DNA of 64,000 nucleotides. Source: Octopus vulgaris. Lineage: Eukaryota. A model generated the notes under the pieces. That model was given only the letters and a program-made list of their open reading frames with translations, searched no databases and was not told the origin of the DNA. The stretch spans positions 75,826,001 through 75,890,000 of the forward strand of contig OX597827.1 of NCBI GenBank assembly GCA_951406725.2, written 5' to 3'. Below, piece by piece: positions 1,571 to 47,600 of the stretch; the stretch's first letter is position 1; every line of letters starts with the position of its first letter. Both the position numbers and the translations under genes were made by a program.

Positions 1571-2347
1571 CATGGGTGTTTATTAAGTGGCACCAGCTCG
1601 GGTGCATTTTATATGGAACCGGCAGAGGTGCCTCTTACGTGTACTGGTGGCACAGTTGCTTTTTACATGACTGGACTGGTGCTTTTTATGTGGTCGTTTT
1701 TACTCCTCCAGTGGGGTTAAGAGGAGTGGAACTGGGTGGGGGGAGTAGCTGTGTGCCAGGTGAGTATGATAGTGGGACAAGGGAGATACTTGGCCACCCC
1801 AGTAAGACAAGGAAAGAAAAGGAAGGTGAGAGATAGTTAGAGAGAGAGAGAGAGAGAAATAGATGGTGGGTGTTGGAGATGTACTGGGGCCTACTCACAG
1901 TGAACAACAGTAAGGGGGAGAGTATAAATAGTGCAGAAGTTTTGAGTGGGGTGGAATGTTCAGGCTTCTGAACAGTATCCATTTACAAAACTTCAGTCAC
2001 AAGGTATTGCTTAACCCAAAGCTATGACCGTGATAAAAGACCCCTTCCCAGGGCCTCATAATTTGTAATCAAATCAGGAACCATGAAAGTTTGAAGCCAA
2101 TCTCCTAATCACACAGCAAAGTTTGTGCCATGGTTTCAGTTTATTGTCTGTAATGTTCGATATAACCAACCCTGTGTACCACCCAGACAATCCCACTGAA
2201 GCAGACCTACAGCAATGAAACTGTGGCTGAGGTAAAAAAAAAAAGAAAAAAAGAAAAGAAGAAATGCAGTGGGCAGCAGTGCCATCAATGGGCATTTGAT
2301 TGATTAGCTCTGTTGTTTAGTCCAAGATCAGCCCTCATCCAACAGAC

Positions 2348-2565
2348 TTAACCCATTATTCTGCTAAAATTAATCCTTTTTTTATCCATATTGCCTTGAA
2401 CTAATCAGGCATTATCTTGGTGCTATGAGATTTTGATGAGGTAGCTGTTAATTTTTAAAACGATATTGTAGGGCTGGTGTGAGAGACCAGATCTGACCAG
2501 TTTGAACATAAAACAGGCAGAATACTTTTGGCCGGATATGGCCGGTTTAAATGCTAAAGGGTTAA
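2348..2565. mobile_element. piggyBac-like MITE family 1
   Basis: TTAA-CCC...AAAGGG-TTAA ends; homologous to 6131-6357 and 49739-49947. Confidence 0.75.
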
Positions 2566-2743
2566 GACCAAACATGTTCCAGTCATTGCCATCCCAATAT
2601 TTTGTCAGCTATAATGTATTTAGGACTACATGACCCAATGTAAAGACAATGTAGTATGATTTGAGAGAGGTTTGGTTGTTGTTTCTAGCATGCTGAGTGA
2701 CCATGTAGAGGCTTTCTGAATGGTTTGTATATTAATCATGAAA

Positions 2744-3040
2744 AAACATTCGAGCGAGGTTGCTGCCAGTGCTGCTGGACTGGCTTCTGTGCAGATGGAG
2801 CATAAAAAACACCATTTGAACGTGGCCGTTGCCAGTACCACCTAACTGGTCCTTATGCAGGTGGCACGTAAAAGCACCCACTACACTCTCGGAATGGTTG
2901 GCGTTAGGAAGGGCATTGAGCTGTAGAAACTCTGCCAGATCAAGACTGGAGCCTGGTGCAGCCATCTGGTTCGCCAGTCCTCAGTCAAATCGTCCAACCC
3001 ATGCCAGCATGGAAAGTGGATGTTAAAGGATGATGATGAT
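2744..3040 (+). mobile_element. 3' end of RTE-type LINE family C
   Basis: GGCGTTAGGAAGGGCAT...GTTAAAGGATGATGATG tail. Confidence 0.75.
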
Positions 3041-3634
3041 GGTGATTACTGTTGTTGTTATTGCTGCTGTTGTTGTTTAGCTCCTGATTGAGCAGACTTA
3101 TGATTGAAGGTGTTCAAGTTGTGACCATCCAGCCTCTTGTTTTCAGAAAGATTGTGTATGTTCTCCTTTTAAGACTGTAGAGTGTGATTTGAGGGAGAGT
3201 GGTGGTTATTTCTAGCAGGTTGAGTGTCTGTGTAGTGGCAGCTCCATCGGTGTCACTCCTTAGAGTAATGAAAATGTTATATCATGATAGTTGATTGGAT
3301 TCCACTGTGTAAAGCTCCTATTTACTAATTAATTAGACAGTCTAGACTGGCATTCTGCCATTGACTCATCGTCTTCTTGCTTGTTGATTATAAGGAAACC
3401 TTGTTATTTGGTTGGTTTTTGTTGACCTCCAGGTCATCAGTGACTTCCTCGTCGTGACAGAGAATGGTCAGAAGTTGGGGGTGGGAAGTAAATCCATTGT
3501 GATGGTTGTGTCACTGAGCAAAGTAAATAACTTTGCTTGATCTAACATGGCTATTCAATCTGCTTGAAATAACAGCTAAATATCTCTTAAGGTCACACCT
3601 CACTGACTTCATCAAAGAGACTAACCCATCAGAT

Positions 3635-5423: not shown

Positions 5424-5897
5424 ACCTATTTCTTTACTACCCACAAGGGGCTAAACACAGAGATGACAAACAAGGACCGACAAACGGATTAAGTCGATTA
5501 TATCGACCCCAGTGCGTAACTGGTACTTTTTTAATCGACCCCGAAAGGATGAAAGGCAAAGTGGACCTCGGCGGAATTTGAACTCAGAACGTAGCGGCAG
5601 ACGAAATACCGCTAAGCATTTCGCCCGGCATACTAACGATTCTGCCAGCTCGCCGCCCTAAAATGTATTTCTTTACTACCCACAAGGGGGGCTAAACATA
5701 GAGGGGACAAACAAGGACAGACAAAGGGATTAAGTCAATTACGTCGACCCCAGTTGAAAACTGGTACTTTATTTATCGACCTCGAAAGGATGAAAGGCAA
5801 AGTTGACCTCGGCGGAATTTGAACTCAGGACGTAATGACAGACGAAATACGGCTACGCATTTCGCCCGGCGTGCTAACGTTTCTGCCAGCTTACCAT
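5424..5897 (-). mobile_element. Two tandem copies of tRNA-derived SINE family B (Nin/Deu-like core)
   Basis: Head GGCGGCGAGCTGGCAGAA, B box GAGTTCAAATTC, core GACTTTGCCTTTCATCCTTTCGGGGTCGAT; copies ~5424-5659 and ~5665-5897. Confidence 0.85.
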
Positions 5898-9282: not shown

Positions 9283-9430
9283 GTTCATCTAATTTGTTTT
9301 TAACAAATTGGATTTGACAAGAGGAGATTTTTGAAAATTCAGAGCTGTCACTCATTTGTTGTGGTATTTAAGCTATTTTTTTTTTCTAAACCATAAATTA
9401 TATTTGAAAGGCAGTTAATCTCCACCCAAG

Positions 9431-12220
9431 ATGGAGAGATCTGCTGGTGTTCCATTCCACTATGACATGTATGGGATGCCCTTCCACCCAGCTCATAGTC
9501 TTCATCCTCAACGAATGTCTCACATTCCTGAGAAATCAATACACAATACTCTGGCCTCGGCCAGCAAACATTTCAGCCACAACAATGATCATGCACTGGA
9601 CACCCAGCGTATGTTGCAAAGTCACTCTGTTGAGAAGTCACTGCACAGTGACCTGAGTCGGTCCCAGTACAGCCATGGTCATGTCTCTCACAGCAGCCAC
9701 ACATCAAACCATGCCCAGCAGCAACGAATTATGTCAATCGCTGAGAAGTCTCTACATCAACACAACAATGAACTGACCAGCAAACACCTTCACCATAGAC
9801 AGAGTTCATCTCATTCTCATACCTCGTCTGCATCTCATTCTTCACACAGTTCACAGAGGTTATCACTTGCTGCTGACAAATCTATCCTCAACAGTGTTGG
9901 TAGTTCGTCTGGTAAACACTATTCACACGAACATGTGCAGGCCTCACAGAGAATGTCGCATGAAAAGTCATCTCATAGTCCCAGCATCATGGGAAAACAG
10001 TTTTCTCATGGAAACTCTCTTGATACTTCGAGGATGTCACATGTTCCAGAGAAAAACATTCACAACAGCATCTCCAGTAAACAGATCTCTTCCCACAGAC
10101 ATAACTTGGAGAAGGAGAGAATAGCCTCACCAGTTGACAAACCAGACAACAACAGCAACAGCGACCTGTCTGGGAGCCAGTTCTCTCATGAGTCGACTAT
10201 CGAGAGCCAGAGGCTGCCACTGCCCTATATTGGTCAGACAGTGTTTCCTGGTAACAATATGTACAGCAGCCAGTATTCTCAGCCATGTTACTTACCGACC
10301 ACTGACAGAATGCAGTCAAGCTTGGAGGGCGGACAATCATCCAAGGAGAGTTCTTCTCAAAAGACCTCCACTTCTAGTATTGATAAATCATTCCATGGTG
10401 ATGTGTCTCAAAAACAATACGGCCCGAACAAACTCTCGCAGAGCTCCATAAAACAACATCAACAGCAGCCGCAAGAGGATGATGAGGAGGAGGAGGACGA
10501 AGATGAACAACCCCGTCACGCTCAACCCCTCAAACAGCTCTTCTGCGATTACTGCGGCAAGAAGTTTGCTCAGGAATATTTGATGCACATGCACCGAAGG
10601 AAACATACGGGAGAGAAACCGTTCCAGTGCGACATCTGTCACAGACAGTTCTCTCGCAGAGATGTCTTAAAAAGACATCGCAAAAACCACTTAGCAGAAC
10701 CTAAAGCTCCAATTAGCAGCAGTTTTCCAACAATGTCATCACCCCCAATCCAAAGCCCAGAAGCTCAGTCCCCAAAGTATCAACCTCACCTCCAAATGCA
10801 GGCTTCTTTATCTCAAAAAAGCAACTCCAGCAGTTATCAAGGAGTCTCACCTGATATTCCTAGATTTGAAGATCTTCATAATGTCTCAGGTGGGAAGAAG
10901 TTTTATTTTTGTGACATCTGCCACAAGCAATTTGCCCAGCGCTACTACTTAGCCATACACCGAAGATCTCACACTGGCGAGAAACCTTTTCAATGCGACT
11001 TCTGCATTCAGCGGTTTTCCAGAAAAGATACATTAAAGATCCATCGTAGAACACACACTGGGGAAATGCCGTTCCAATGCGATGCTTGCCCTGAAAAGTT
11101 TTCGCAGAGAATTAAACTTCAGATGCACAAGAAGACACATATTAGCAAGAAGAAATATCAGTGTGACATCTGTCACAAGCAGTTTGCCCAACGCTATTAC
11201 CTGCGCACCCACATGACCATCCATACTGGAGAAAAACGGAACCAGTGTGACATTTGCTTCAAGCAGTTTGCCCAAAGGTACTATTTGCAAATCCACAAGA
11301 GGCTTCATACAGGGGAGAAACTCCTTCATTGCGATGTCTGCTTAAAAAAGTTCACCCAGAAGCATTATTTGGTTATTCACAAACGAACTCACACCGGCGA
11401 AAAGCCGTATCAATGTGATTTTTGTATCCAGAAATTTGCACGCAAAACTACACTTCAGATTCATCGACGGACCCACACGGGGGAGAAACCTTTCCATTGT
11501 GACCTCTGTCCCGAACAGTTTGCTCAGAGCAACAAACTACGAGCTCATAAGAAGCTTCATGAGAAGGTTTCTCAGAAACGTACCTATGTTACCACCATCA
11601 CTTCAATAAAAGGTGACATGACAAAGAAACATTACCAGTGTGATGTTTGTATGAAGCTGTTTGCCCAGAGGCATTATCTGCAGGTTCACAAAAGGTCTCA
11701 CACCGGGGAGAGACCGTTCCAGTGTGAGATTTGCTTCAAACAGTTTGCTCAGAGAAACACATTACAGATACACAAGCGAACACACACAGGAGAGAAACCA
11801 TTCCAGTGTGAAGTCTGCCTCAAGAACTTTGCCCACAAACACTACCTGCAATTGCATAAACGGACCCACACCGGGGAAAAGCCGTTCCAGTGTGACTTCT
11901 GCTTCAAGCAATTTGCACAGAGGAATTCCCTCCATATCCACCGCAGGACACATACAGGCGAACGACCGTTCCAGTGTGACTTCTGTTTCAAAACATTTGC
12001 CCAGAAACACTACCTACGACTGCACAAACGAACCCATACAGGGGAGAAGGCCTTCCACTGTGACTTGTGCCCTAAACACTTTGCTAGGAGCGACACACTA
12101 CATCGCCACAAGAAGACCCACAACAAGACTGCCAGTAAACCTCCAAAGACTTCTTCAAACTCCATCAACAAAACGGTTGAAGAATTTCCTCCTATGAGCA
12201 CTTATTTGTGGCAACTGTGA
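9431..12220 (+). CDS. C2H2 zinc-finger protein, 929 aa, 16 fingers (clusters of 2+8+6), His/Ser-rich N-terminus, polyQ/acidic patch
   Basis: Uninterrupted 2.8-kb ORF with repeated CxxC-x12-HxxxH and TGEKP linkers; no KRAB/BTB-type domain recognised. Confidence 0.96.
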   Translation: MERSAGVPFHYDMYGMPFHPAHSLHPQRMSHIPEKSIHNTLASASKHFSHNNDHALDTQRMLQSHSVEKSLHSDLSRSQYSHGHVSHSSHTSNHAQQQRIMSIAEKSLHQHNNELTSKHLHHRQSSSHSHTSSASHSSHSSQRLSLAADKSILNSVGSSSGKHYSHEHVQASQRMSHEKSSHSPSIMGKQFSHGNSLDTSRMSHVPEKNIHNSISSKQISSHRHNLEKERIASPVDKPDNNSNSDLSGSQFSHESTIESQRLPLPYIGQTVFPGNNMYSSQYSQPCYLPTTDRMQSSLEGGQSSKESSSQKTSTSSIDKSFHGDVSQKQYGPNKLSQSSIKQHQQQPQEDDEEEEDEDEQPRHAQPLKQLFCDYCGKKFAQEYLMHMHRRKHTGEKPFQCDICHRQFSRRDVLKRHRKNHLAEPKAPISSSFPTMSSPPIQSPEAQSPKYQPHLQMQASLSQKSNSSSYQGVSPDIPRFEDLHNVSGGKKFYFCDICHKQFAQRYYLAIHRRSHTGEKPFQCDFCIQRFSRKDTLKIHRRTHTGEMPFQCDACPEKFSQRIKLQMHKKTHISKKKYQCDICHKQFAQRYYLRTHMTIHTGEKRNQCDICFKQFAQRYYLQIHKRLHTGEKLLHCDVCLKKFTQKHYLVIHKRTHTGEKPYQCDFCIQKFARKTTLQIHRRTHTGEKPFHCDLCPEQFAQSNKLRAHKKLHEKVSQKRTYVTTITSIKGDMTKKHYQCDVCMKLFAQRHYLQVHKRSHTGERPFQCEICFKQFAQRNTLQIHKRTHTGEKPFQCEVCLKNFAHKHYLQLHKRTHTGEKPFQCDFCFKQFAQRNSLHIHRRTHTGERPFQCDFCFKTFAQKHYLRLHKRTHTGEKAFHCDLCPKHFARSDTLHRHKKTHNKTASKPPKTSSNSINKTVEEFPPMSTYLWQL

Positions 12221-26856: not shown

Positions 26857-27192
26857 CATCATCGTTTAACGTCCGTTTTCCATGCTAGCAGGGGTTGGAC
26901 GGTTCAACTGGGGTCTGGGAAGCCAGAAGGCTGCACCAGGCTCCAGTCTGATCTGGCAGTGTTTCTACAGCTGGATGCCCTTCCTAACGCCAACCACTCC
27001 GTGAGTGTAGTGGGTGCTTTTTACGTGCCACCTGCACAGGTGCCAGACGAGGCTGGCAAACGGCCACGATCGGATGGTGCTTTTTACGTGCCACCGGCAC
27101 AGGTGCCAGACGAGGCTGGCAAACGGCCACGATCGGATGGTGCTTTTTACGTGCCACCTGCACGGGGGCCAGACGAGGCTGGCAACGGCCAC
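26857..27192 (-). mobile_element. 3' end of RTE-type LINE family C with three ~63-65-bp internal tandem units
   Basis: GGTGCTTTTTACGTGCCACC...GACGAGGCTGGCAA repeated three times. Confidence 0.8.
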
Positions 27193-27957
27193 AATCCATT
27201 GTATTTTTATACCTCTGATAAAGGTGTGCAACTCTTCTCGTTCCACTCCTTACTTCACAGTCAAATGACCACTGGTCATTAAAAGAGGACAGCTATTCGT
27301 AGAAGCGTTTATTCTGAGCAACACCCATATGCAATCCCTTTGGAAAATGGATGTAAAAGAGCAACGTGTATATATTTATACCTATGCATGCATTATATAT
27401 ATATATATGTATATAAATACACACACGCGTGAGCATATACACCCTTCACACATAAACATGTATGCAGGCCTTTATAATGTGGTTTTATATTTTTACTTAA
27501 TGACTTGTCCACTTCTTTACTCCTTTATATGTCAATGTTTTTTTTTTACTACCTCAACAATTTGTATAAGATGGGTGTGTATATGATTGTGTGTATTTGT
27601 AGGTGTATATATGTGTATGCATATATATATATATACATATATCTATATCTATCTATCTATATATATATATATGCACGCATACACACACACGGGTTTATAT
27701 AACAAGCATGTACTGGAAGATATATATACACACATATATATATATATATAAACACTTCTATGTATACATGCCACCAACACAGTAACGTTTTTAATTCTAT
27801 ATTTTTTCTATTCAATCACATATGGGTATTGAATGAACTCCGTGGTCGTATTTTACCTCCCCCCATCTCTCTCTCCCCCCTCATTTCCCTCTCCTCTTTC
27901 TCTCTCTAATATCACTAATAATAATAATTATAATAATAACAATAATTATAATAACAC

Positions 27958-33419: not shown

Positions 33420-33767
33420 ATTCCTCGCCTCCTTATGAGAGCTCAAAATCTCTCGTGGAAGCGTCATCCAACCAAAATACAAATATATGGGAAACTACCA
33501 CCTGTGTCATCTCTTGTGAAAGGTAGGAGAGTCCAGTTTGCTGGACATTGTTGTAGAGCTGAAAAAGAGGTAATTTCTACTCTTCTTCTCTGGAAGCCAT
33601 CTACTCGCAACACCAGAGGGCACACACTCTCCTAACCTGATGTAATCTCCAGGGATATAGGCATCCAGCAACAGGACCTCCGTAATGCTATGATGGACCG
33701 TGAAGTCTGGCGTAGCATGGTAAATTCCATTGTCTCGACCACGGTCGAACAATGATGATGATGATGA
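33420..33767 (+). mobile_element. 5'-truncated RTE-type LINE of a different family, C-terminus plus (GAT)n tail
   Basis: RLLMRAQNLSWKRHPT...RRVQFAGHCCRA...LLWKP...AMMDREVWR then TGATGATG. Confidence 0.75.
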
Positions 33768-33877
33768 TATATTTTTCACCTGGACGAGAAGCAGGATTAC
33801 TCATTTTTGCCAGCTGAGTGCCTTGGAGCGACGTGAAATGATTGTAAGTCGAGAAGATGTGTTTTGGCTTCTGTATC

Positions 33878-34302
33878 GGTGGCACGTAAAAAGCACCAAC
33901 CGATCGTGGACGTTGCCAGCCTCCCCTGGCCCCTGTGCCAGTGGCACGTAAAAAACACCAACTATACTCACGGAGTGGTGGGCATTCAGCTGTATAAACA
34001 CTGCCAGACCAGACTGGAGCTTGGTGCAGCTTCCTGGGTTCCCAGACCCCGGTCAAACCGTCCAACCCATACTAGCATGGAAAACGGACGTGAAACGATG
34101 ATGATCTATGTATATCATCATCATCATCATCGTTTAACGTCCATTTTCCGTGCTAGCTCGAGTTGGACGGTTCGACCGGGGTCTGGGAAGCCAGGAGGCT
34201 GCACCAGGCTCCAGTCTGATCTGGCAGTGTTTATACAGCTGGATGCACTTCCTAACGCCAACCAATCCGTGAGTGTAGTGGGTGCTTTATACGTGCCACC
34301 GG

Positions 34303-34303
<1 letters not shown>
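33878..34303. mobile_element. Two RTE family C 3' ends in tail-to-tail inverted orientation
   Basis: + copy ends GATGATGAT at ~34105; - copy starts (CAT)n at ~34114. Confidence 0.8.
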
Positions 34304-34374
<71 letters not shown>

Positions 34375-34994
34375 TTCAGCAAAATTTAGATTCAGATGAA
34401 TATGGTACGTAAGTCAAAGGCATATATATATATATATATCTGTATCTATTTATATATATATATATATATGTGTTTATATATCTATCTATATATATATATT
34501 TATATATATATATTTATATATCTATATACATATCTATCTATCTATATATATAGATAGATAGATAGATAGATACATACATACATACACACATTTACATATA
34601 TATTCGTATGGTAAGTTTAAATGGTTAAACACAGTTAAATAGAGACAAGGCTCCAGTATGGCCAGAGATACTGAAAAACAGATATTGAATGAAACACTTT
34701 AACAAAAGCATTAAAATTAATAAAGATTTTTAATAACACATTACAAATGACATTATTTGCATATCTGCAATATGCACGAATATACGTTTCGATGAATGAG
34801 TCTGTGTGTACGTGTATACACATTTGTATATATTTGATGTATATAGACATGTATGTTTGATTGATGACGACTGTAAAACAGAGATGATCAATCGTGTTTT
34901 ATCAGAGATGCGATATATCTTGGTAAAACATATTGTGAAGGCATTTATGACTTATAAACTGCATAGATATGAATTCAGCTTTACATAGAGAGAG

Positions 34995-35570
34995 AGAGTT
35001 TGAGGTATGGGTTACATAGTGTATAGAAGGAGAAGCGTACATTGTGCAGTATCACTGATATTTTGTAAGTGTGTGTGTAGAGAGAGAAAGACAGTGTGAT
35101 ACAGATGATATACACAAGAGAGAGATATTGTGAGGTACCACTGCAATGTTGAGTGTGTAGAGAGAGAGGGACATAGAGTGAGGTACCACTGGTATATTGC
35201 ATATCTGGAGAGAGAGAGAGAGAAATCGAGGTACCATTGGTATATTGTGTAAGGAGAGATATACAGAGAAGTACTATTGGTATATTGTGCTGAAAGAGAT
35301 AGACATGAGGTAACACTGGTATATTATTGGTGTAGGCAAGGTACTACTGGTATAGTGTGTAGAGAGAGATACAGTGAGGTACTATGAGTATATTTTGTTT
35401 AGAGAGAGATACAATGAGGTACCACGGGTATACTGTGTAAAGAGCGATATACAGCAAGGTACCATTAGTATATTGTGTAGGAAGAGAGGTACCATTGGTA
35501 TACTTTGTAGAGTTCACAATGACGCATATGTATATATAGAGAGAAGGGGAGTGAGAGAGATGAAGTACCA
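34995..35570. repeat. Degenerate ~30-48-bp minisatellite, core (T)GAGGTACCAYTGGTATA
   Basis: About 13 recognisable units separated by variable (AG)-rich spacers. Confidence 0.85.
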
Positions 35571-35766
35571 GGGATGTATATGTGCGTGTGTGTAGATGTA
35601 TAGCAGAAGTGTGAAGCTTGATAGTGTGTGTAGGAAAAAGAATTACGCTAGATTACATGTGTAGAGAAGGGTACATATACATACATATATATATACATAT
35701 ACATCTATATACATGCACATACATATATATATATGCATACATATACATATATATATATGCATACAT

Positions 35767-35904
35767 GGCATTAGGAAGGGCATCCAGCTGTAGAAACATT
35801 GCCAGATCAGACTGGGCCTGGTGCAGCCTTCTGGCCTTCCAAACCCCAGTTGAACCGTCCAACCCATGCTAGCATAGAAAGCAGATGCTAAATGATGATG
35901 ATGA
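35767..35904 (+). mobile_element. 3' end of RTE-type LINE family C
   Basis: GGAAGGGCATCCAGC...GATGATGATG. Confidence 0.75.
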
Positions 35905-36348
35905 TATATATATATATATATATATGCATACATATATACACATACATATATATATGCATACATATATACACATACATATATACATGCATACATATATATA
36001 TGCATACATATATACACATACATATATATATGCATACATATATACACATACATATATATATGCATACATATATATATATGCATACATATATACGCACACA
36101 TATATATGCATACATATATATATATGCATACATATATACGCACACATATATACACACACATATATGCATACATATATACACACACATATATACACACACA
36201 TATATATGCATACATATATACACACACATATATATATGCATATATATATATACATATATATATATATGGATACACATATATGCATATATATATATACACA
36301 TATATGCATATATATACACATATATGCATATATATATATACACATATA

Positions 36349-36388
<40 letters not shown>

Positions 36389-36530
36389 TGCATATATATA
36401 TATACACATATATGCATATATATATATATATATATATATGCATGTATGTTTATATATATATATATATATACACACACAATGTATACGTATATGCATATAT
36501 ATATATATATGTATGCATACATATATATAA
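35905..36530. repeat. (TA/CA) compound microsatellite
   Basis: TATATGCATACATATATACAC units. Confidence 0.95.
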
Positions 36531-37414
36531 ACTAGGTCTGATTAATAAGTATCCGGACTGTTGCCATAGTAACGAGGCTATAAGACATATAGTGAGGCTG
36601 CTTGGAAAAGATTGACTCAGAACTCTGCTGTACATGCACACTAAGTTTCAGTGTTCTACCTCACTGCCTTTGTTTACAGCAATGCTTAGAAGGAAGGTGT
36701 GTAGCGTGCGATCATCGCATTGACCATGACAGAGTAAGATGTCATGGTGATACCTGCTCAGAGGCCTATGCAAGCTTGCAGAAAATGTAAATGGAGGAGA
36801 ATGGGAGTCGCATGGAAGTGTACAAGTGGTTCAGACATTCCCAAGATAGCCAAAATGTGTCACTACTGATGAACGTTCTAAGAGACCAGCAACCGGCAAA
36901 ACTGAGGAAGACATTGCAGATGTGTGTGCAGCTGCAAAGGGAAACTGTTGGATCACCATCTGTGAGTTATCAGATGTGCAGATTTGTTATGGCTCAGTTT
37001 AGTCCATTATCACTGAAGATTTGCGTATGAGACGCATGTCCGCCAAATTCGTGCCAAAATTGCTTTGAGCTGACCAAAGAAACAATTGGGATTCTGTGGC
37101 ACAAAATCTCTTTGATTGTGTCATGAATGATGATAACTTTTCCATAGGCGTCTGAACAGGTATCACCAAGCTTTAGGCAAAATTTGATGCAGATTCTCTG
37201 CCCACCTTCCTCTGTCATGGTCAATGCGACAATCACACGCTACACACCTTTTACTTCTAAGTACTGCTGTAGAAAGCAGAAGGGAGCTAAAGTGTTAAAA
37301 TAGTGCATATGCACAGTAAAGTTTAAGGTCAATCTTTGCCAAATGGCTACAATCTGCATGCCTCAGCTTCGTTACTATGACAATAACCCGGATAATTATT
37401 GAGCAGACCATGTA
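36531..37414. mobile_element. Mariner-derived element built from two inward-facing left ends
   Basis: TIR GGTCTGATTAATAAGTATCCGG / CCGGATAATTATTGAGCAGACC; + strand relics VYKWFR and AKFVPKLL; - strand QRICIKFCLKLG. Confidence 0.8.
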
Positions 37415-38450
37415 TACACATATATATATATATATGTGTGCATACATACATATGCATATATATATATACATGTATATACATATATACATACATACATACA
37501 TGCGTACATACATGCATGCATACATACATGCATACATATATACATGCATACATACATACATGCATACATACATATATACATGCATACATACATATATATG
37601 CATACAATATATATATATATATACATGCATACATACATATATACATGCATACATACATACATACATGCATACATACATACATATATATATACATACATAC
37701 ATATATATATACATACATACATATATATATACATACATACATATATATATACATACATACATATATATATACATACATACATATATATATATACATACAT
37801 ACATACATACACACATATATATATATATACATGCATACATACACATATATATATATATACATGCATACATACACATATATATATATACATGCATACATAC
37901 ACATATATATATATACATGCATACATACACATATATATATATATACATGCATACATACATACACATATATATATATATACATGCATACATACATACACAT
38001 ATATATATATATACATGCATACATACATACACATATATATATATATACATGCATACATACATATATATATATATACATGCATACAGATATACATACATAC
38101 ATATATATACATGCATACATACATACATACATATATATACATGCATACATACATACATACATATATATACATGCATACATACATACATATATATATATAT
38201 GCATGCATACATACATACATACATATATATACATGCATACATACATACATATATATATATACATGCATACAGACATACATGCATACATATATATACATGC
38301 ATACAGACATACATGCATACATACAGACATATATACATGCATACATACATACATATATACATACATATATACATGCATACATACATACATATACATACAT
38401 ACATATACATATATATATTTATGCACACATTTACACACACACATATATAT
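37415..38450. repeat. ~1-kb (TACA/TA) compound satellite
   Basis: ATACATGCATACATACATAT units. Confidence 0.95.
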
Positions 38451-38710
38451 GTCAAAGTTTGTATTTGTGAATGTATATATGTTAATATAATTCTATGCAT
38501 CATAATTGTGTGAATAACATATGTAAATATTTCAGAGTGTTTATGTGCACATGTATACAGATATATATATTTAGGTGAGAACACATATGTACATGTATGT
38601 TGATATATATATGTATACAAACATGTTGTGTTGGAGGGGACAGGAGAAAGAAAGGGACAGAGATTTATACTGGGGGGGGGGGGCATACTGCAGTTGTACA
38701 TGAATGGAGT

Positions 38711-40156
38711 TTATGTTTGAGGATGGACTGGGCCCCACAGAAGGTTCCCTGGGCTGTATTCCTTGATGTTTTTGCACAGTGTGGGCTTCATAAATACCTC
38801 GTGTGTCCTTTTGTGGCTCTCCAAGCTACTCATTGTTGCGCATTCCTTGTTGCACACATCGCACTGGAATGACATGAGGCCGGCGTGTGTCGTCTGATGG
38901 ATCTGCAATTCATCCCGTTCGCTAAACTGCAGCATGCACACCTCGCAGCAGAACAATTTGCTCATAACTGCATGCACGTGTTTCTTATGTGCCTGCAGCT
39001 GCACTTTACGTGTGAACTGCTCAGAGCACATGTCGCAATCAAAAGGTTTGTCGCCTGTGTGCGTCCGCATGTGAATCTGTAACTTATCCTTGCGTGCAAA
39101 GTCCTTCTGGCAGACATCACACTGGAACGGCTTCTCCCCCGTGTGAATTCTACGATGAATCTTTAAGTAACATCTCTGGACAAACTGTTTGGGGCAGAGG
39201 TCACAGTGGTAGGGCTTCTCCCCCGTGTGGGTCCTTCGATGGATTTTCAAACGATCGCTTCGTGCAAACTTCTTCAAACAGATTTCACACATAAACGGCT
39301 TCTCCCCAGTATGGGTCCGTTCGTGGATCTGTAGTTTGTCTTTCAGGACAAACTGTTTTGGGCAGTAGTTGCAATGGTAAGGCCTCTCACCCGTGTGGGA
39401 GCTCATGTGAATCTTTAACTTGTCCTTCCTAGAAAACTGTTTCGTGCAGATCTCACAATGGAACGGTTTCTCCCCTGTGTGAATTCGTTCGTGGATTTGT
39501 AATTTGTCTCGGTGAACAAACTTTTTGGCACAAAACGTGCAATGGAACAGTTTCTCGCCCGTGTGCAGTCTCTGGTGCAGCTGCAATGCACTTCTCCTGG
39601 CAAAGCTCTTTTCACAACTGCCACAATGAAATGACTTGACTGGCGTATCAGCTTTCTGAATGACTGGCATTGATTGGTATTTAGGGAGACTGTTGACCCC
39701 TTGGTGGACTTTGTTGTCGTTGGTGCTCAACTGTTTGTCGTGGCCCTGCGGCAGATAACAGTTCGGGACAAGCTTCTGTGGTGGGGCAACGTTAGGCAGC
39801 ATTCCATGGGGCTGTAAGTAATAACTGGACAACTGGTTGTTATAAATGCCCCCATAGAAAGGTTTGTCGTTCAGGGTGGATATACGAGGAATAATTGAAG
39901 TGCTAGTTGTTGCTACTGTTGTTGCTGGGGATGGTGGTTGTGGTGGCTGTGGAGGGGGTGGTGATGCTACTGCTGGGGTCGACACAACTGATGTCGCTGC
40001 AATTGGCGGTGTCGATACATTGTTGGCCTGTGACAATGCTGCAATGGCCGAGGGCAGTGGCCCCTGGTTAACAGCATACTGAAGTTTTCTGGTATATTCT
40101 ATGGGTAAAGAGTTTTCAGTAGAATATTTTATAAGGCGGTTCGGAGCAGAAGACAT
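38711..40156 (-). CDS. C2H2 zinc-finger protein, 481 aa, 10 fingers, Pro/Thr/Ala-rich N-terminus
   Basis: Uninterrupted ORF with tandem CxxC-x12-H fingers and TGEKP linkers. Confidence 0.95.
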   Translation of the reverse strand: MSSAPNRLIKYSTENSLPIEYTRKLQYAVNQGPLPSAIAALSQANNVSTPPIAATSVVSTPAVASPPPPQPPQPPSPATTVATTSTSIIPRISTLNDKPFYGGIYNNQLSSYYLQPHGMLPNVAPPQKLVPNCYLPQGHDKQLSTNDNKVHQGVNSLPKYQSMPVIQKADTPVKSFHCGSCEKSFARRSALQLHQRLHTGEKLFHCTFCAKKFVHRDKLQIHERIHTGEKPFHCEICTKQFSRKDKLKIHMSSHTGERPYHCNYCPKQFVLKDKLQIHERTHTGEKPFMCEICLKKFARSDRLKIHRRTHTGEKPYHCDLCPKQFVQRCYLKIHRRIHTGEKPFQCDVCQKDFARKDKLQIHMRTHTGDKPFDCDMCSEQFTRKVQLQAHKKHVHAVMSKLFCCEVCMLQFSERDELQIHQTTHAGLMSFQCDVCNKECATMSSLESHKRTHEVFMKPTLCKNIKEYSPGNLLWGPVHPQT

Positions 40157-40545
40157 ATTGTGTGGTGGTGGTGGTGGTGGTGGTGGTGGGGAACAGAAAG
40201 GAGAGAGAAAGACGGAGAAGGAGCAAATGGGAAGGCTTTGCTTTTGTTTAGTTAACGACCTTTTGAAATAGTTTTGTTTTAATTAAAATCATCAAAAACA
40301 CATTTGGTTCATGTCTTTGAACCGGTTTGATCTCGTTTTCCAATAAACGAAAAAATATAATAAAATACAAAGAATTTCAGCTTTTGTATTCGAAGCCAGG
40401 GTTACACACAGCATCTATGAATGACACAATGCTGGATGTGTTGGTGTGTGGTGCTGTAAACGGTGATTCCATTCATGAGGCCAGAGGCTGGTAATATCAG
40501 TCCAATTCAGGAATCTTCCTCTGGAGGGAACCTTCATTCACAAAT

Positions 40546-40590: not shown

Positions 40591-40729
40591 GTGGTATGTT
40601 GTGAACTTAATGTGACAGTCCCATGAAAGGGAAGAATGCTACTGCTATTTAGCCCTAGGAAACACCACTAAATAGCAGTAGCATTCTTCCCTTTCATGGG
40701 AATGTCACATTAGGTTGACAACATACCAC
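40591..40729. repeat. Inverted repeat: 62-bp arms, 15-nt loop
   Basis: Arms 40591-40652 and 40668-40729, 3 mismatches. Confidence 0.92.
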
Positions 40730-43674: not shown

Positions 43675-44574
43675 CATCATCGTTTAGCGTCCGCTTTCCA
43701 TGCTAGCATGGGTTGGATGGTTCAACAGGGGTCTGGGAAGCCAAAAGGCTGCACCAGGCCCAGTCTGATCTGGCAGTGTTTCTACAGCTGGATGCCCTTC
43801 CTAAGGCCAACCACTCCGTGAGTGTAGTGAGAGCTTTTTACACACCACCGGCACAGGTGCCAGACGAGGCTGGGAAACGGGCCACGATCAGATGGTGCTT
43901 TTTACGTGCCACCGGCACGGAGGCTGGCAACAGCCATGATCGGATGGTGCTTTTTACGTGCCACCGGTAGGGAGGCCAGTCGGGGCGGCGCTGGCAACGG
44001 CCACGTTCGGATGGTTCTCTTATGTGCCACTGGCACTGGTATCACAGCTACAATTTCCATTGATGTTGATCAATTTCGATTTTCCCTTGCCTCAACAGGT
44101 CTTCGCAAGTAGAGTTTTGTGTCCCAAGAAGGAAAGGTATGCATAAGTGGACTGGCTACATCCCAGGTGTAGGCCACGGATTATGGTCTCACTTGTCCTG
44201 CCGGGTCTTCTCACACACAGCATACTTCCAAAGGTCTAGGTCTCTAGTCATTTCCACAGTGAGACCTAAAGTTCGAAGGTCGTGCTTCACCACCTCGTCC
44301 CAGGTTTCTCCTGGGTCTACCTCTTCCACAGGTTTCCTCAATCGCTAGGGTGTGGCACTTTCTGACACAACTATCTTCATCCATTCTCGCCACATGACCA
44401 TACCAGCGCAAACGTCTCTCTTGCACACCACAACTGATGCTTCTTAGGCCCAACTTTTCTCTCAAGGTACTTACACTCTGTCGATTATGAACACTGACAT
44501 TACACATCCATCGGAGCATAATGGCTTCATTTCTTGCGAGCTTACGCATATCCTCAGCGGTCACGGCCCATGTG
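43675..44574 (-). mobile_element. 5'-truncated RTE-type LINE family C (ORF C-terminus plus 3' UTR)
   Basis: TWAVTAEDMRKLARNEAIMLRWMC...RRLRWYGHVARMDEDSCVRKC...GRGRPR; contiguous with the (GAT)n-tailed repeat seen throughout the window. Confidence 0.88.
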
Positions 44575-44601
44575 TACAAAATGTATAAATGGACGAGGAG
44601 T

Positions 44602-44675
44602 AAATCCCCAGCACAGCTTCGATTACTTGTTGTTGTCCAACAAGTAATCGAAGTGATAGTGGGTGGTGGGGATTT
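44602..44675. repeat. Short hairpin, perfect 16-bp inner stem
   Basis: CTTCGATTACTTGTTG-ttgtc-CAACAAGTAATCGAAG; outer AAATCCCCA/TGGGGATTT. Confidence 0.85.
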
Positions 44676-47600
44676 GAGAGAATTTCTCTGCTATTTCTAG
44701 CATGGAGCCTTCGCTGTTGGCTCGGAGCTGCAGGGGAGGTGTAAAAAGCCGGTGGTTTATATATAATTACTCCGTTTATTGTTAGTCATAATCTGATTCT
44801 AATCAAGTTTTGCTGATGTCTTTGAAACTCGTGTGTACATAGACTAATTATATTTATACAAAATATTTTTTCTTTGTTATTGTATATAAAATGATTCATT
44901 TCTGTAATGGTCAAACTACAGTATTTTTATGCAGCAAAATTATCTTGTAAACTGAACGAAATGGTTGAAAAACAAATAAATACGAACTTTAATATCGATT
45001 AGAAAGAAATAATTATATAGTTATATCGGAGAACATCCTTTGAAAACAATAAAAGTTATGGGACAAAATTCGAGGAAAGACTTCTGTCCCACAACTTTTC
45101 AGTTACACATTTAAAGAGGCAACAGATCGTAGATGCCCGATCAAACTTTGGCATTCTATAGTATACAATGCTAATAACGAGTAAAAGCTGAACGAAACAA
45201 AAGCCAAAACCAATGTAACGGGGGTGGATTTGAAAAGTGCGAATTAATTATTTGAACTTCATTGTCATTTAAAAAACCAAGGGGAGACAACTCCCTAGCA
45301 GGAGGAAGGCGAGCACAGCCTGGCCGGAACTGGAAATTAACAAAGCTTCTATGTAGTTGTCCGGTCAGCTAGAAATAACAGCCAAATTTTCATCTAATCA
45401 CACCTTACTGTTAGCAAAAAACGAATTTAAATAATGTAGCCCTAAATGTCTCTAAAATGATAGGAGGTGACGGCTAAAGTTAAACAACGACATCCCTACA
45501 GGTTTAGTGACAAGTTGAACTTGAAAGGATTTGTATTCCTTCGCTGACAAGTCCCTGGTCCCTTGGCAAATTCGCTTGATTCTTACTGATCTACAAATAT
45601 TATAAATTAAAACTTCCATTGTTACTTTCCGAGTTTGTTTTTCTTTTGTCATGGCCTAAACGCCTGCCCGTTTTCGTAAATATAAACAATAAATATATTA
45701 AAAGGGTTGCTAAAACTTATTAATGTTCAGCAAGTTTTTAGCCCATTGTTTTTTTTTATTTTGGTTTTGTCTATTGTGGCAAGAGCGAAAAAATACAAAC
45801 CATGACTAAAAACTTTAAACCGCCTAAAACTACTTCAACAGTACTATGTGATGGTATAATGAATAGTACACGTCTATAAGTAACAGACAGATATTCCATA
45901 GCTTGACCGGATGGTTTTTCGCTCCTCACACAGATATAATGGTTCAGAAAATAACTACCAACACAAGGAGAATGAACTTGAACAAATAACACTCAACGTA
46001 ATATCTAGTGGGTGACAATTGACCTCCTAGAACATGGCTAGCCATATTCGAAACATGAAACTAGCCACACTTAGCTAATTTCAATACGTTGCCATCGCCG
46101 TATCTTACAATATCAGTTTTTATATTTACACATTTGTCAACAGTAAAAAATAAAATCTTACACAAGTTTAGGAAGACCCTCAGAAAAAGCATGACCAAAA
46201 CTAATATCTTGATATACTAACTGGTAGGCCCTATCTGTGGAACAAGTTAGCCCCGTATAAAACCCATCTAGAAATATAAACTTCTATAACCTTGAATCAG
46301 TTTAAAGAAAGGTTGGATAAACGAACTCAGTGACAGAATGGAGGCTAAAGGATTCACATCTTTGGAATTAGGAGGAAAGTTGGAAATTTTTACTATCATC
46401 GTCAAAATTTTGCAGTGAATGTGATAATGTATGAAGAAAAATACTGGTAATACAACAGAGTTTACAACACTAGAGCTTGCAGTTAAACCGAAATGATTCT
46501 TTTAATCGCATCCTTAGTTATGAACACACCACAACGGACCAGTGGACTATCAGTCATGTAACAAATTTCTGACAGCAAGGAAGTGAAGCTGACTTTGGTG
46601 GACAGAAGGCGCATAGAAAGGGCGATATTCTTATAAGGCATCCGAAATGTGAACTTTAATTGAAATAACGTGAAGAGCAATTTGTGGTCGCTTCACCAAC
46701 TGGAAATAACATTTTTTTGTCTCAAAAACAGAAAAGATATATTGAACTAAGTACTTCTACAAACATAAAAGGGACATTTCGGTCATGGTTCAGAATGCTT
46801 TAATAATAGTAATTATAGTAAGTGTGGTGGATTAGTGATGATAAGGGAGCAAAATAAAACGAAAGATCTTGCGTAGAATACGGAAAATAGATGACAAAAG
46901 ACAGAATAAAAAAGAACGAGGGGAGGTAACTCAGTAAATAAAGTATATAAAGGAGGGAAAATGGGAAGAGGAAAGCGGAAAAGAAATTACGCGGAACTAC
47001 AGAATAGTATCGTCCTAACAGTTTCTGTTAACTTCCGAAATTGTTGATCGTCTCCTGATGAGCTTGACAGAGCTGAGCTGTGATCAGAAGTACTGCAACA
47101 CGATCAGACTGTTTTTTTTACGGGTATATTAGTTAATGTAGGTATATTAGTTATTGTAGGTGTAATCTGAGGGAGATTTGGCTGCTATTTCTAGCACACC
47201 AAGCAACCACATAGAGACGTCCTTGTTAACTTTCAAAGAGGCCGAGGGGAGGCAACTCGTATCACTTGCAGACAAAGCGAAGCCAAGAGAAGCGATACAA
47301 AATGGCTGGGACAAGTGGAAAAAACATTTCAACATCATTTAACATGATTTCGGGATGTTTTGTACAACATAGTCACGATGATAATTCTAGTAAATTCTCC
47401 CACAAAATAAATAATAAGCACTAGATAACTTTAAGGCAATATATATAGTCGCATTGTTCTGACACATTTCCGCTGTCCCGAATTAGATTTTCGTCTACTT
47501 TCGAAATTTCGAATATAAATAAATAGAAACTTTTTTTAAAAAATCATTAGTTTCTTGAGGATGTTTTAGATGTATAGAAAAAAATTAAGAAAAAATTTAA

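What the first reader, a model, noticed from the sequence alone, without database searches (positions are those of the whole stretch)
34995..35570. Minisatellite that reads as a tandem array of bulged let-7 target sites on the ZNF strand
Seen: plus-strand unit TGAGGTACCACTGGTATA(T/G)TG. TGAGGTA occurs at 35001, 35131, 35179, 35306, 35375 and 35415, with GAGGTA twice more. Established: let-7 is UGAGGUAGUAGGUUGUAUAGUU, so the minus strand presents TACCTCA (7mer-A1 seed match); several units add TATAC, complementary to let-7 nt 15-19, across a central bulge - the architecture of a miRNA sponge. The array lies 3.1-3.7 kb downstream of the minus-strand ZNF stop and just before a candidate ATTAAA (34729-34734, minus). 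Inference: a repeat-built let-7 control module in a 3' UTR. Caveats: one chance match amplified in tandem would look the same, and nt 8 is unpaired. Alternative: an array of the palindromic DNA site TACCANTGGTA.
Basis: partly seen in the sequence, partly recalled or inferred. Interest (0 to 1): 0.72.

Follow-up and report, generated by a model that had tools for sequence, protein, structure and literature searches.

The report
Let-7 site array in octopus transcript
A unique, worn tandem repeat downstream of an octopus zinc-finger gene keeps the letters that would pair with the microRNA let-7 better than its other letters, so it likely is a repeat-built let-7 control element, but binding, repression and its link to the zinc-finger message are untested.

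Summary
The array is real and single-copy: about 13 worn units of about 40 bp (35001-35582), 3.2-3.7 kb past the stop of a minus-strand C2H2-ZNF in an Octopus genome. Contigs of five probable RNA runs span the array. The first canonical poly(A) hexamer after the stop lies just beyond it. Seed arrays alone mean nothing here (464 genome-wide matches versus 722 control). What is unusual is the footprint: in ten core units, let-7-pairing columns differ 11% between copies and the others 46% (p 0.0003-0.025 in the shuffle and base-stratified tests). Against: no unit pairs nt 8 by Watson-Crick; the core units' 3' pairing is weak, in a register poor for let-7, and no better in energy than shuffles; paralogs lack arrays; cross-species conservation could not be tested; no read joins array and ZNF. 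Verdict: likely (about 0.6) a selected let-7 site cluster, more plausibly repressing its host mRNA than acting as a sponge. The scan's notes showed no earlier match.

The parts
35001..35582 (-). Degenerate ~40-bp minisatellite, 13 recognisable units; minus strand presents 6 7mer-A1, 2 6mer, 4 single-wobble and 1 decayed let-7 seed sites, separated by AG-rich spacers
   Evidence: single copy in genome
35001..35021 (-). Strongest site: 7mer-A1 seed, let-7 nt 8-10 unpaired opposite 2 nt, then 11 contiguous predicted pairs (nt 11-21; 9 WC, 2 G:U); 3' energy -10.6, total -21.3 kcal/mol; predicted accessible (0.66)
35561..35582 (-). Other terminal unit: G:U at seed nt 4, predicted pairing at nt 9-12 and 14-19; -20.2 kcal/mol; predicted accessible (0.63)
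35131..35506 (-). Ten gap-free core units: seed columns 57 of 60 cells WC, 3 G:U, 0 mismatches; GTATA block 47 of 50
35045..35116 (-). Two decayed units (35045, 35095) that have lost the seed match
34729..34734 (-). ATTAAA, candidate poly(A) signal; TGTA at 34742-34745 upstream and a U/GU-rich tract 34680-34710 downstream on the minus strand
   Evidence: roles from established knowledge of metazoan 3' end signals
34711..38710 (-). Inferred 4.0-kb 3' UTR (contains TA/TACA microsatellites and repeat remnants); continuity from stop to array not shown
   Evidence: no AATAAA/ATTAAA between 38710 and 34734; contigs cover only the distal kilobase that was laid
38711..40156 (-). C2H2 zinc-finger ORF, 481 aa from the first Met, 9 fingers by strict pattern; member of a chromosome-14 octopod subfamily

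Best explanation
The array is a single-copy, worn tandem repeat whose let-7-pairing letters are better kept than its other letters, and it likely is a selected cluster of let-7 sites at the far end of the ZNF's inferred 4-kb 3' UTR. One seed-bearing unit was amplified about 13-fold (inferred). Let-7/Argonaute would bind up to eight seed-matched units, most strongly the two open terminal ones, and lower the mRNA's stability or translation in cis. Many medium-strength 7mer-A1/6mer sites would add up to repression where let-7 is high, reported as non-neuronal tissues, and so help confine the transcription factor to neural tissue (inferred).
For: (2) Contigs of 5 probable RNA runs from 4 studies cover the array, 3 of them as one piece of 878-961 nt. 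(3) Footprint in 10 core units: pairwise difference 0.108 in 14 let-7-matching columns versus 0.458 in the other 8. Column permutation p=4e-5 with t1 left out, 0.006 with it; counting alleles only, 5e-4 and 0.007. With the seed fixed and nt 8-22 shuffled, 1 of 3000 shuffles match the contrast; with decayed or terminal units added 22, 10 and 14 of 3000; base-stratified p=0.013-0.025. (4) Unit 35001: best of 87 seed sites in 264 kb by total energy; 0 of 99 background sites reach its 3' energy or run length; a pattern drawn on it has 6 genome matches including let-7 itself, control 16. (5) First canonical hexamer after the stop lies just past the array. [quoted passage not shown]
Against: Seed triplets at this spacing are common by chance (464 versus 722 control). 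No unit has a WC pair at nt 8 (10 C, 2 T, 1 A of 13), so there is no 8mer or 7mer-m8. Mean duplex energy is no better than shuffled 3' ends (609 of 3000 for 12 units, 1102 of 3000 for the core); summed non-seed pairing 210 of 2000; non-seed mutation simulations 97-418 of 1000, and 51-75 of 1000 for 35001 alone; best-unit run 137 of 5000. Seed retention alone p=0.04-0.09. Both G2-to-A 'wobbles' sit in a CpG-decay context. Let-7a prefers 3' pairing at nt 11-16 with positive offset, and nt 17-19 have no detectable importance in worms (PMC8940178), yet the kept block pairs nt 15-19 at offset -1. Seven of 10 core seeds are predicted occluded (P unpaired below 0.1). None of 7 other ZNF genes checked has more than 2 seed matches downstream. 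The units were chosen and registered by me after seeing the data.
Confidence: 0.5

Rival explanations
1. Neutral minisatellite: one chance let-7 seed match was amplified in tandem and is decaying; any let-7 binding is incidental.
For: Hundreds of chance seed-triplet matches genome-wide, fewer than control; a 360-bp repeat nearby carries 4 GAGGTA copies with weak pairing (L017); energy tests null; two units have lost the seed; no array in paralogs; AT-rich columns mutate less, which shrinks the footprint p to 0.013-0.025.
Against: The footprint survives composition-preserving shuffles and base stratification in all four unit sets. The most diverged seed-bearing unit (35001) is the best site, not the worst. 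None of 5 variants between individuals falls in the seed or GTATA columns, though with 4 SNPs this is not significant (p about 0.25).
Confidence: 0.3
2. The RNA acts on let-7 rather than the reverse: a decoy, or a trigger of target-directed miRNA degradation (TDMD) through unit 35001, with the other units holding Argonaute nearby. It could be the ZNF UTR or a separate non-coding transcript.
For: 35001 has seed, central loop and 3' energy -10.6 kcal/mol, inside the -9.6 to -17.1 range of validated triggers (PMC10899785 section 11; different program). The kept block pairs the 3' end of let-7, which matters more for TDMD than for repression (inference). Let-7 is reported non-neuronal and LIN28 is listed as absent in Octopus (PMC9699675 table S2).
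Against: Longest WC-only 3' run at 35001 is 5 bp, below the 6 bp seen in 12 of 13 triggers; seed is 7mer-A1 while most triggers have 8mers; pairing from nt 11 at offset -1 is unfavourable. Eight to twelve sites are few beside more than 70 in ciRS-7 (PMC6108476). Expression level unknown.
Confidence: 0.1
3. The constraint comes from another ligand: a DNA-binding protein on the TACCANTGGTA palindrome, an RNA-binding protein, a small hairpin, or an octopus-specific miRNA with C at nt 8.
For: Column 8 is C in 9 of 10 core units; one unit shows a 9/13 double change that keeps the palindrome (35375); the array folds somewhat better than shuffles on both strands (z -2.3 and -2.5, 40 shuffles).
Against: Palindrome columns are not specially conserved (p=0.14-0.16; pairwise difference 0.178 versus 0.108); kept columns 2-5, 17, 18 and 20 lie outside it. 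The two other genomic copies of the 17-mer core are at control level and form no pre-miRNA hairpin.
Confidence: 0.1

Closest known systems
ciRS-7/CDR1as (miR-7) and circZNF91 (miR-23) site clusters (PMC6108476, passages)
   Same: Many nearby sites for one miRNA in one RNA; seed plus partial 3' pairing.
   Different: Here 8-12 sites, in a linear poly(A)-proximal tandem repeat, for let-7, in a mollusc; no circularity or binding shown.
C. elegans lin-41 let-7 sites (as described in PMC8940178, passages)
   Same: let-7 sites in a 3' UTR with imperfect or weak seed and extended 3' pairing; unit 35001 pairs from nt 11 as they do.
   Different: lin-41 has two sites with offset +1 and nt 11-19 paired; here offset is -1, most units pair only nt 15-19, and the sites come from a repeat.
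TDMD triggers such as Cyrano, HSUR1 (PMC10899785, section 11 read)
   Same: Seed, central loop and long 3' pairing at unit 35001; 3' energy within the reported range.
   Different: 7mer-A1 seed, two G:U pairs inside the 3' helix, WC run only 5 bp; no degradation shown.
SHISA7 3' UTR VNTR sharing miR-3681-5p sites (PMC7398795, abstract only)
   Same: A tandem repeat in a 3' UTR overlapping miRNA sites.
   Different: An LTR-derived human miRNA; here an ancient miRNA and a degenerate array with a pairing-shaped footprint.
miR-181a targeting of repeated C2H2 coding regions (PMC2978345, search listing and abstract start)
   Same: ZNF mRNAs gaining many sites for one miRNA through repetition.
   Different: Those sites are in finger-coding repeats shared by many genes; this array is non-coding and unique to one locus.

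Membership tests
Canonical miRNA target cluster | WC match to miRNA nt 2-7 (6mer or better) | tested here: met
   8 of 13 units (6 with A opposite nt 1)
Canonical miRNA target cluster | Cognate miRNA encoded in the genome | tested here: met
   one let-7 hairpin over the Rfam cut-off, L004
Canonical miRNA target cluster | Sites lie in a transcript, on the sense strand | tested here: inconclusive
   probable-RNA contigs cover the array; contigs give no strand; minus strand inferred from ZNF orientation and ATTAAA
Canonical miRNA target cluster | Preferential conservation of pairing positions | tested here: inconclusive
   met between copies; no diverged species was reachable
Canonical miRNA target cluster | AGO binding and miRNA-dependent repression | not testable with these tools
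   needs CLIP or reporter
miRNA sponge (ciRS-7 type) | Dozens of sites and abundance enough to titrate the miRNA | tested here: not met
   8 seed-matched sites versus more than 70; abundance not measurable from contigs
TDMD trigger | Seed pairing plus unpaired central loop | tested here: met
   unit 35001: nt 8-10 unpaired
TDMD trigger | At least 6 contiguous 3' pairs, 3' energy about -9.6 to -17.1 kcal/mol | tested here: inconclusive
   11 with two G:U, 5 WC-only; -10.6 by ViennaRNA against RNAstructure values; not met by the other 12 units (weaker than -8)
TDMD trigger | ZSWIM8-dependent loss of the miRNA | not testable with these tools
   needs knock-out and small-RNA sequencing
let-7 precursor (RF00027) | Covariance-model match on the plus strand | tested here: not met
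   genome-wide search gave only L004; no let-7 row among the 150 of 283 rows shown for 33500-38700

The most novel reading that the evidence does not exclude
A neural zinc-finger mRNA carries a repeat-built let-7 trap whose terminal unit triggers let-7 degradation. It would keep let-7 low in the octopus nervous system and stand in for LIN28, which one survey lists as absent in Octopus: a natural let-7 TDMD trigger, evolved by minisatellite expansion.
Probability: 0.07. Interest if true: 0.85.

Novelty: new member of a known kind. Interest (0 to 1): 0.5.

Why it matters
If true, it is a rare case where the birth of strong microRNA control by tandem duplication can be read from one locus, with the copies serving as their own conservation test. 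It links the ancient timing microRNA let-7 to a member of the cephalopod C2H2 expansion tied to nervous-system evolution, and it gives one defined site (35001) for a direct test of let-7 degradation in a mollusc. If false, it is one of many minisatellites with a chance seed.

Tried and rejected
No RNA holder listed on record as RNA; 'RNA' is the tool's guess. Contig ends: none of the 5 probable RNA runs covers 34600-34710, and X6 and X17 both stop at 34711, 18 nt past ATTAAA; the other three stop at 34741, 34775 and 34826. X6 and X17 share one study and the DNA run X2 gave no long piece on the stretch, so this does not meet the tool's bar for even a weak hint and is not counted as evidence. 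Cross-species test failed: runs labelled organisms B, C and D are 99% identical to the window, and organism E (X24) gave only two short spurious pieces. A metagenome scan gave 4 unrelated loci. No orthologue of the ZNF's N-terminal part among proteins of 262-837 aa, none of the whole protein among 120 listed of 2565. Rfam hits in the region are AT-repeat artefacts below gathering scores. Origin from the let-7 gene itself: no flank similarity by eye. The 12-unit run was off by one base and is replaced. A LIN28 knuckle search found nothing and its control did not ring, so it is inconclusive. Data S1-S4 of PMC9699675 (annotation, conserved sites) could not be opened past the file names; they may hold the 3' end of this gene and the full miRNA list, which bears on the UTR link and on the other-miRNA rival. 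Earlier scan notes held nothing relevant.

Full report
Setting. The window is G000:C14:75826001-75890000 of a 2.8-Gb genome. A protein named for Octopus vulgaris lies on a contig of exactly C14's length, 84,742,434 bp, so I treat the genome as O. vulgaris. A minus-strand ORF at 38711-40282 encodes C2H2 fingers, 9 by strict pattern. Its nearest listed relatives are cephalopod proteins at 48-49% identity, whose subfamily has five loci on C14 at 76.1-78.2 Mb.

Observation. The array is a worn repeat of about 40 bp with 13 recognisable units from 35001 to 35582 and one more worn unit at 35095. It is single-copy: BLAST found only itself and two 40-nt microsatellite pieces, and a loose two-unit pattern gave 5 matches, all in the array, control 0.

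Transcription. Twenty of 24 listed runs hold half or more of the words of 34600-35680; none is on record as RNA. I laid 8 of the 24. Five probable RNA runs from four studies cover the array: X4 34741-35680, X5 34826-35680 and X10 34775-35680 as single contigs, X6 34711-35538 with further pieces, X17 34711-35496 in two pieces. These runs hold 22-113 million letters against 1,859-3,306 million for the large DNA runs, so cover by stray DNA is unlikely (inference). Contigs give no strand. On the minus strand no AATAAA or ATTAAA lies between the stop and 34734, although weaker variants do (AGTAAA, TATAAA, CATAAA, AATACA). The ATTAAA has TGTA upstream and a U/GU-rich tract downstream. A 4.0-kb UTR is therefore inferred. 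It is ten times the octopus median of about 380 nt (PMC9699675 supplement PDF, passages), and no read bridges the microsatellites between stop and array, so a separate transcript remains possible.

Is the seed array beyond chance? By itself, no. Three seeds at 25-45 nt gaps occur 464 times genome-wide against 722 for the reversed control; the 100 listed rows are mostly homogeneous minisatellites.

The footprint. In the ten gap-free core units the seed columns hold 57 WC, 3 G:U and 0 mismatched cells of 60; column 10 and column 20 are 10 of 10; the GTATA block is 47 of 50. Pairwise difference is 0.108 in the 14 matching columns and 0.458 in the other 8. Column permutation gave p=4e-5 (0.006 if position 1 is counted as paired), and 5e-4 or 0.007 when only alleles are counted. 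With the seed fixed, nt 8-22 shuffled and the same freedom of register, 1 of 3000 shuffles reached the contrast; adding the decayed units and 35001 gave 22, 10 and 14 of 3000; exact permutation within base classes gave 0.013-0.025. Unit 35561 needs a gap and was left out of these column tests. The palindrome columns gave p=0.14-0.16.

The terminal units. 35001 differs most from the core yet is the best site: -21.3 kcal/mol, first of 87 seed sites in 264 kb, with nt 11-21 paired (9 WC, 2 G:U) and 3' energy -10.6. None of 99 background sites in 364 kb had a run of 10 or an energy below -8.9. 35561 scores -20.2 with a wobble at nt 4. Their sum was reached by 22 of 3000 shuffles, a test chosen after seeing the data. 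Both are predicted accessible (0.66, 0.63; median 0.16), while 7 of 10 core seeds are below 0.1.

Results against. Mean energy was not better than shuffled 3' ends (609 and 1102 of 3000). Summed non-seed pairing: 210 of 2000. Mutation simulations on columns 8-22: 97-418 of 1000 for the unit sets, 51-75 of 1000 for 35001; they were low (0-29 of 1000) only when seed columns were included, which is subject to ascertainment. Best-unit run 137 of 5000, mean run 745 of 5000. Seed retention alone p=0.04-0.09; both G2-to-A changes follow a C, as CpG decay would give. No unit has a WC pair at nt 8. For human AGO2-let-7a, pairing at nt 11-16 with positive offset is best, nt 13-21 at offset 0 adds only 3.1-fold, and worm nt 17-19 have no detectable importance (PMC8940178, passages); the block kept here pairs nt 15-19 at offset -1. 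This mismatch between what is kept and what should matter is unexplained. Five paralogs and two neighbouring ZNFs have 0-2 seed matches downstream. Five variants between individuals avoid the seed and GTATA columns, one falls in column 12, and the count is too small to weigh.

Mechanism. Shown: repeat, seeds, footprint, cover by probable-RNA contigs, genome-encoded let-7. Inferred: minus-strand transcript, identity with the ZNF mRNA, selection, repression. I put let-7-related selection at about 0.6, of which cis repression of the ZNF is 0.5 and decoy or TDMD 0.1; chance 0.3; another ligand 0.1. Let-7 is described as broadly expressed in non-neuronal tissues (PMC9699675 table S5, one row) and C2H2 genes as highest in nervous tissue (PMC12513265, passages); this gene's own expression is unknown. 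The published octopus target analysis used 8-mers only (PMC9699675 section 38), so it would not have counted these sites. The TDMD reading rests on 35001 alone against criteria in PMC10899785 (section 11); table S2 of PMC9699675 lists LIN28 as 0 in Octopus, and my own search was inconclusive.

In print. Eight searches listed no paper on a let-7 site array in a cephalopod ZNF transcript; PMC12513265 has no occurrence of miRNA, let-7 or UTR. The library lacks most subscription papers. Clusters of miRNA sites and repeat-borne sites are known, so this is a likely new member of a known kind. Interest 0.5.

Noticed in passing
window 40591-40729: Inverted repeat with arms of about 60 bp upstream of the ZNF ORF, probably intronic; MITE-like by eye.
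   Followed up: no
window 9419-12220 (+): Second single-exon-type C2H2 ORF, 933 aa, 16 fingers; poly(A) hexamers within 400-700 nt of its stop and one seed match 3.5 kb on.
   Followed up: partly
G000:C14 76.14-78.24 Mb (L061-L075) and about 55 kb left of the window: Six further C2H2 ORFs with 8-16 fingers, five sharing an N-terminal motif: a dispersed ZNF cluster; no let-7 arrays.
   Followed up: partly
window 36530-37410: Non-microsatellite stretch inside the inferred UTR that looks like a Tc1/mariner remnant (recalled resemblance, not tested); holds one plus-strand let-7 7mer site at 36657.
   Followed up: no
window 44244-44690 (-): Short ORF resembling the C-terminal end of a LINE reverse transcriptase (recalled motif).
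   Followed up: no
window 5427-5891 and 27013-27196: 241-bp two-copy and 63-bp three-copy tandem repeats inside common interspersed repeats.
   Followed up: no
L017 2306-3386: 360-bp-period repeat carrying four GAGGTA copies with weak let-7 pairing: an example of chance seed amplification.
   Followed up: partly
G000:C2:10779666-10783242 and C4:160.008 Mb: Long homogeneous minisatellites with dozens of TGAGGTA copies; transcription not checked.
   Followed up: no
whole genome: LIN28 listed as absent in Octopus in PMC9699675 table S2; PF21890 search gave no match, control silent.
   Followed up: partly
window 34893, 35037, 35154, 35207, 35426, 35495: Letter differences in laid contigs; 34893 C>A is in all six runs covering it, so the assembly may carry a minor allele; 35154 would read A-to-G on the minus strand but editing cannot be told from an allele.
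   Followed up: partly
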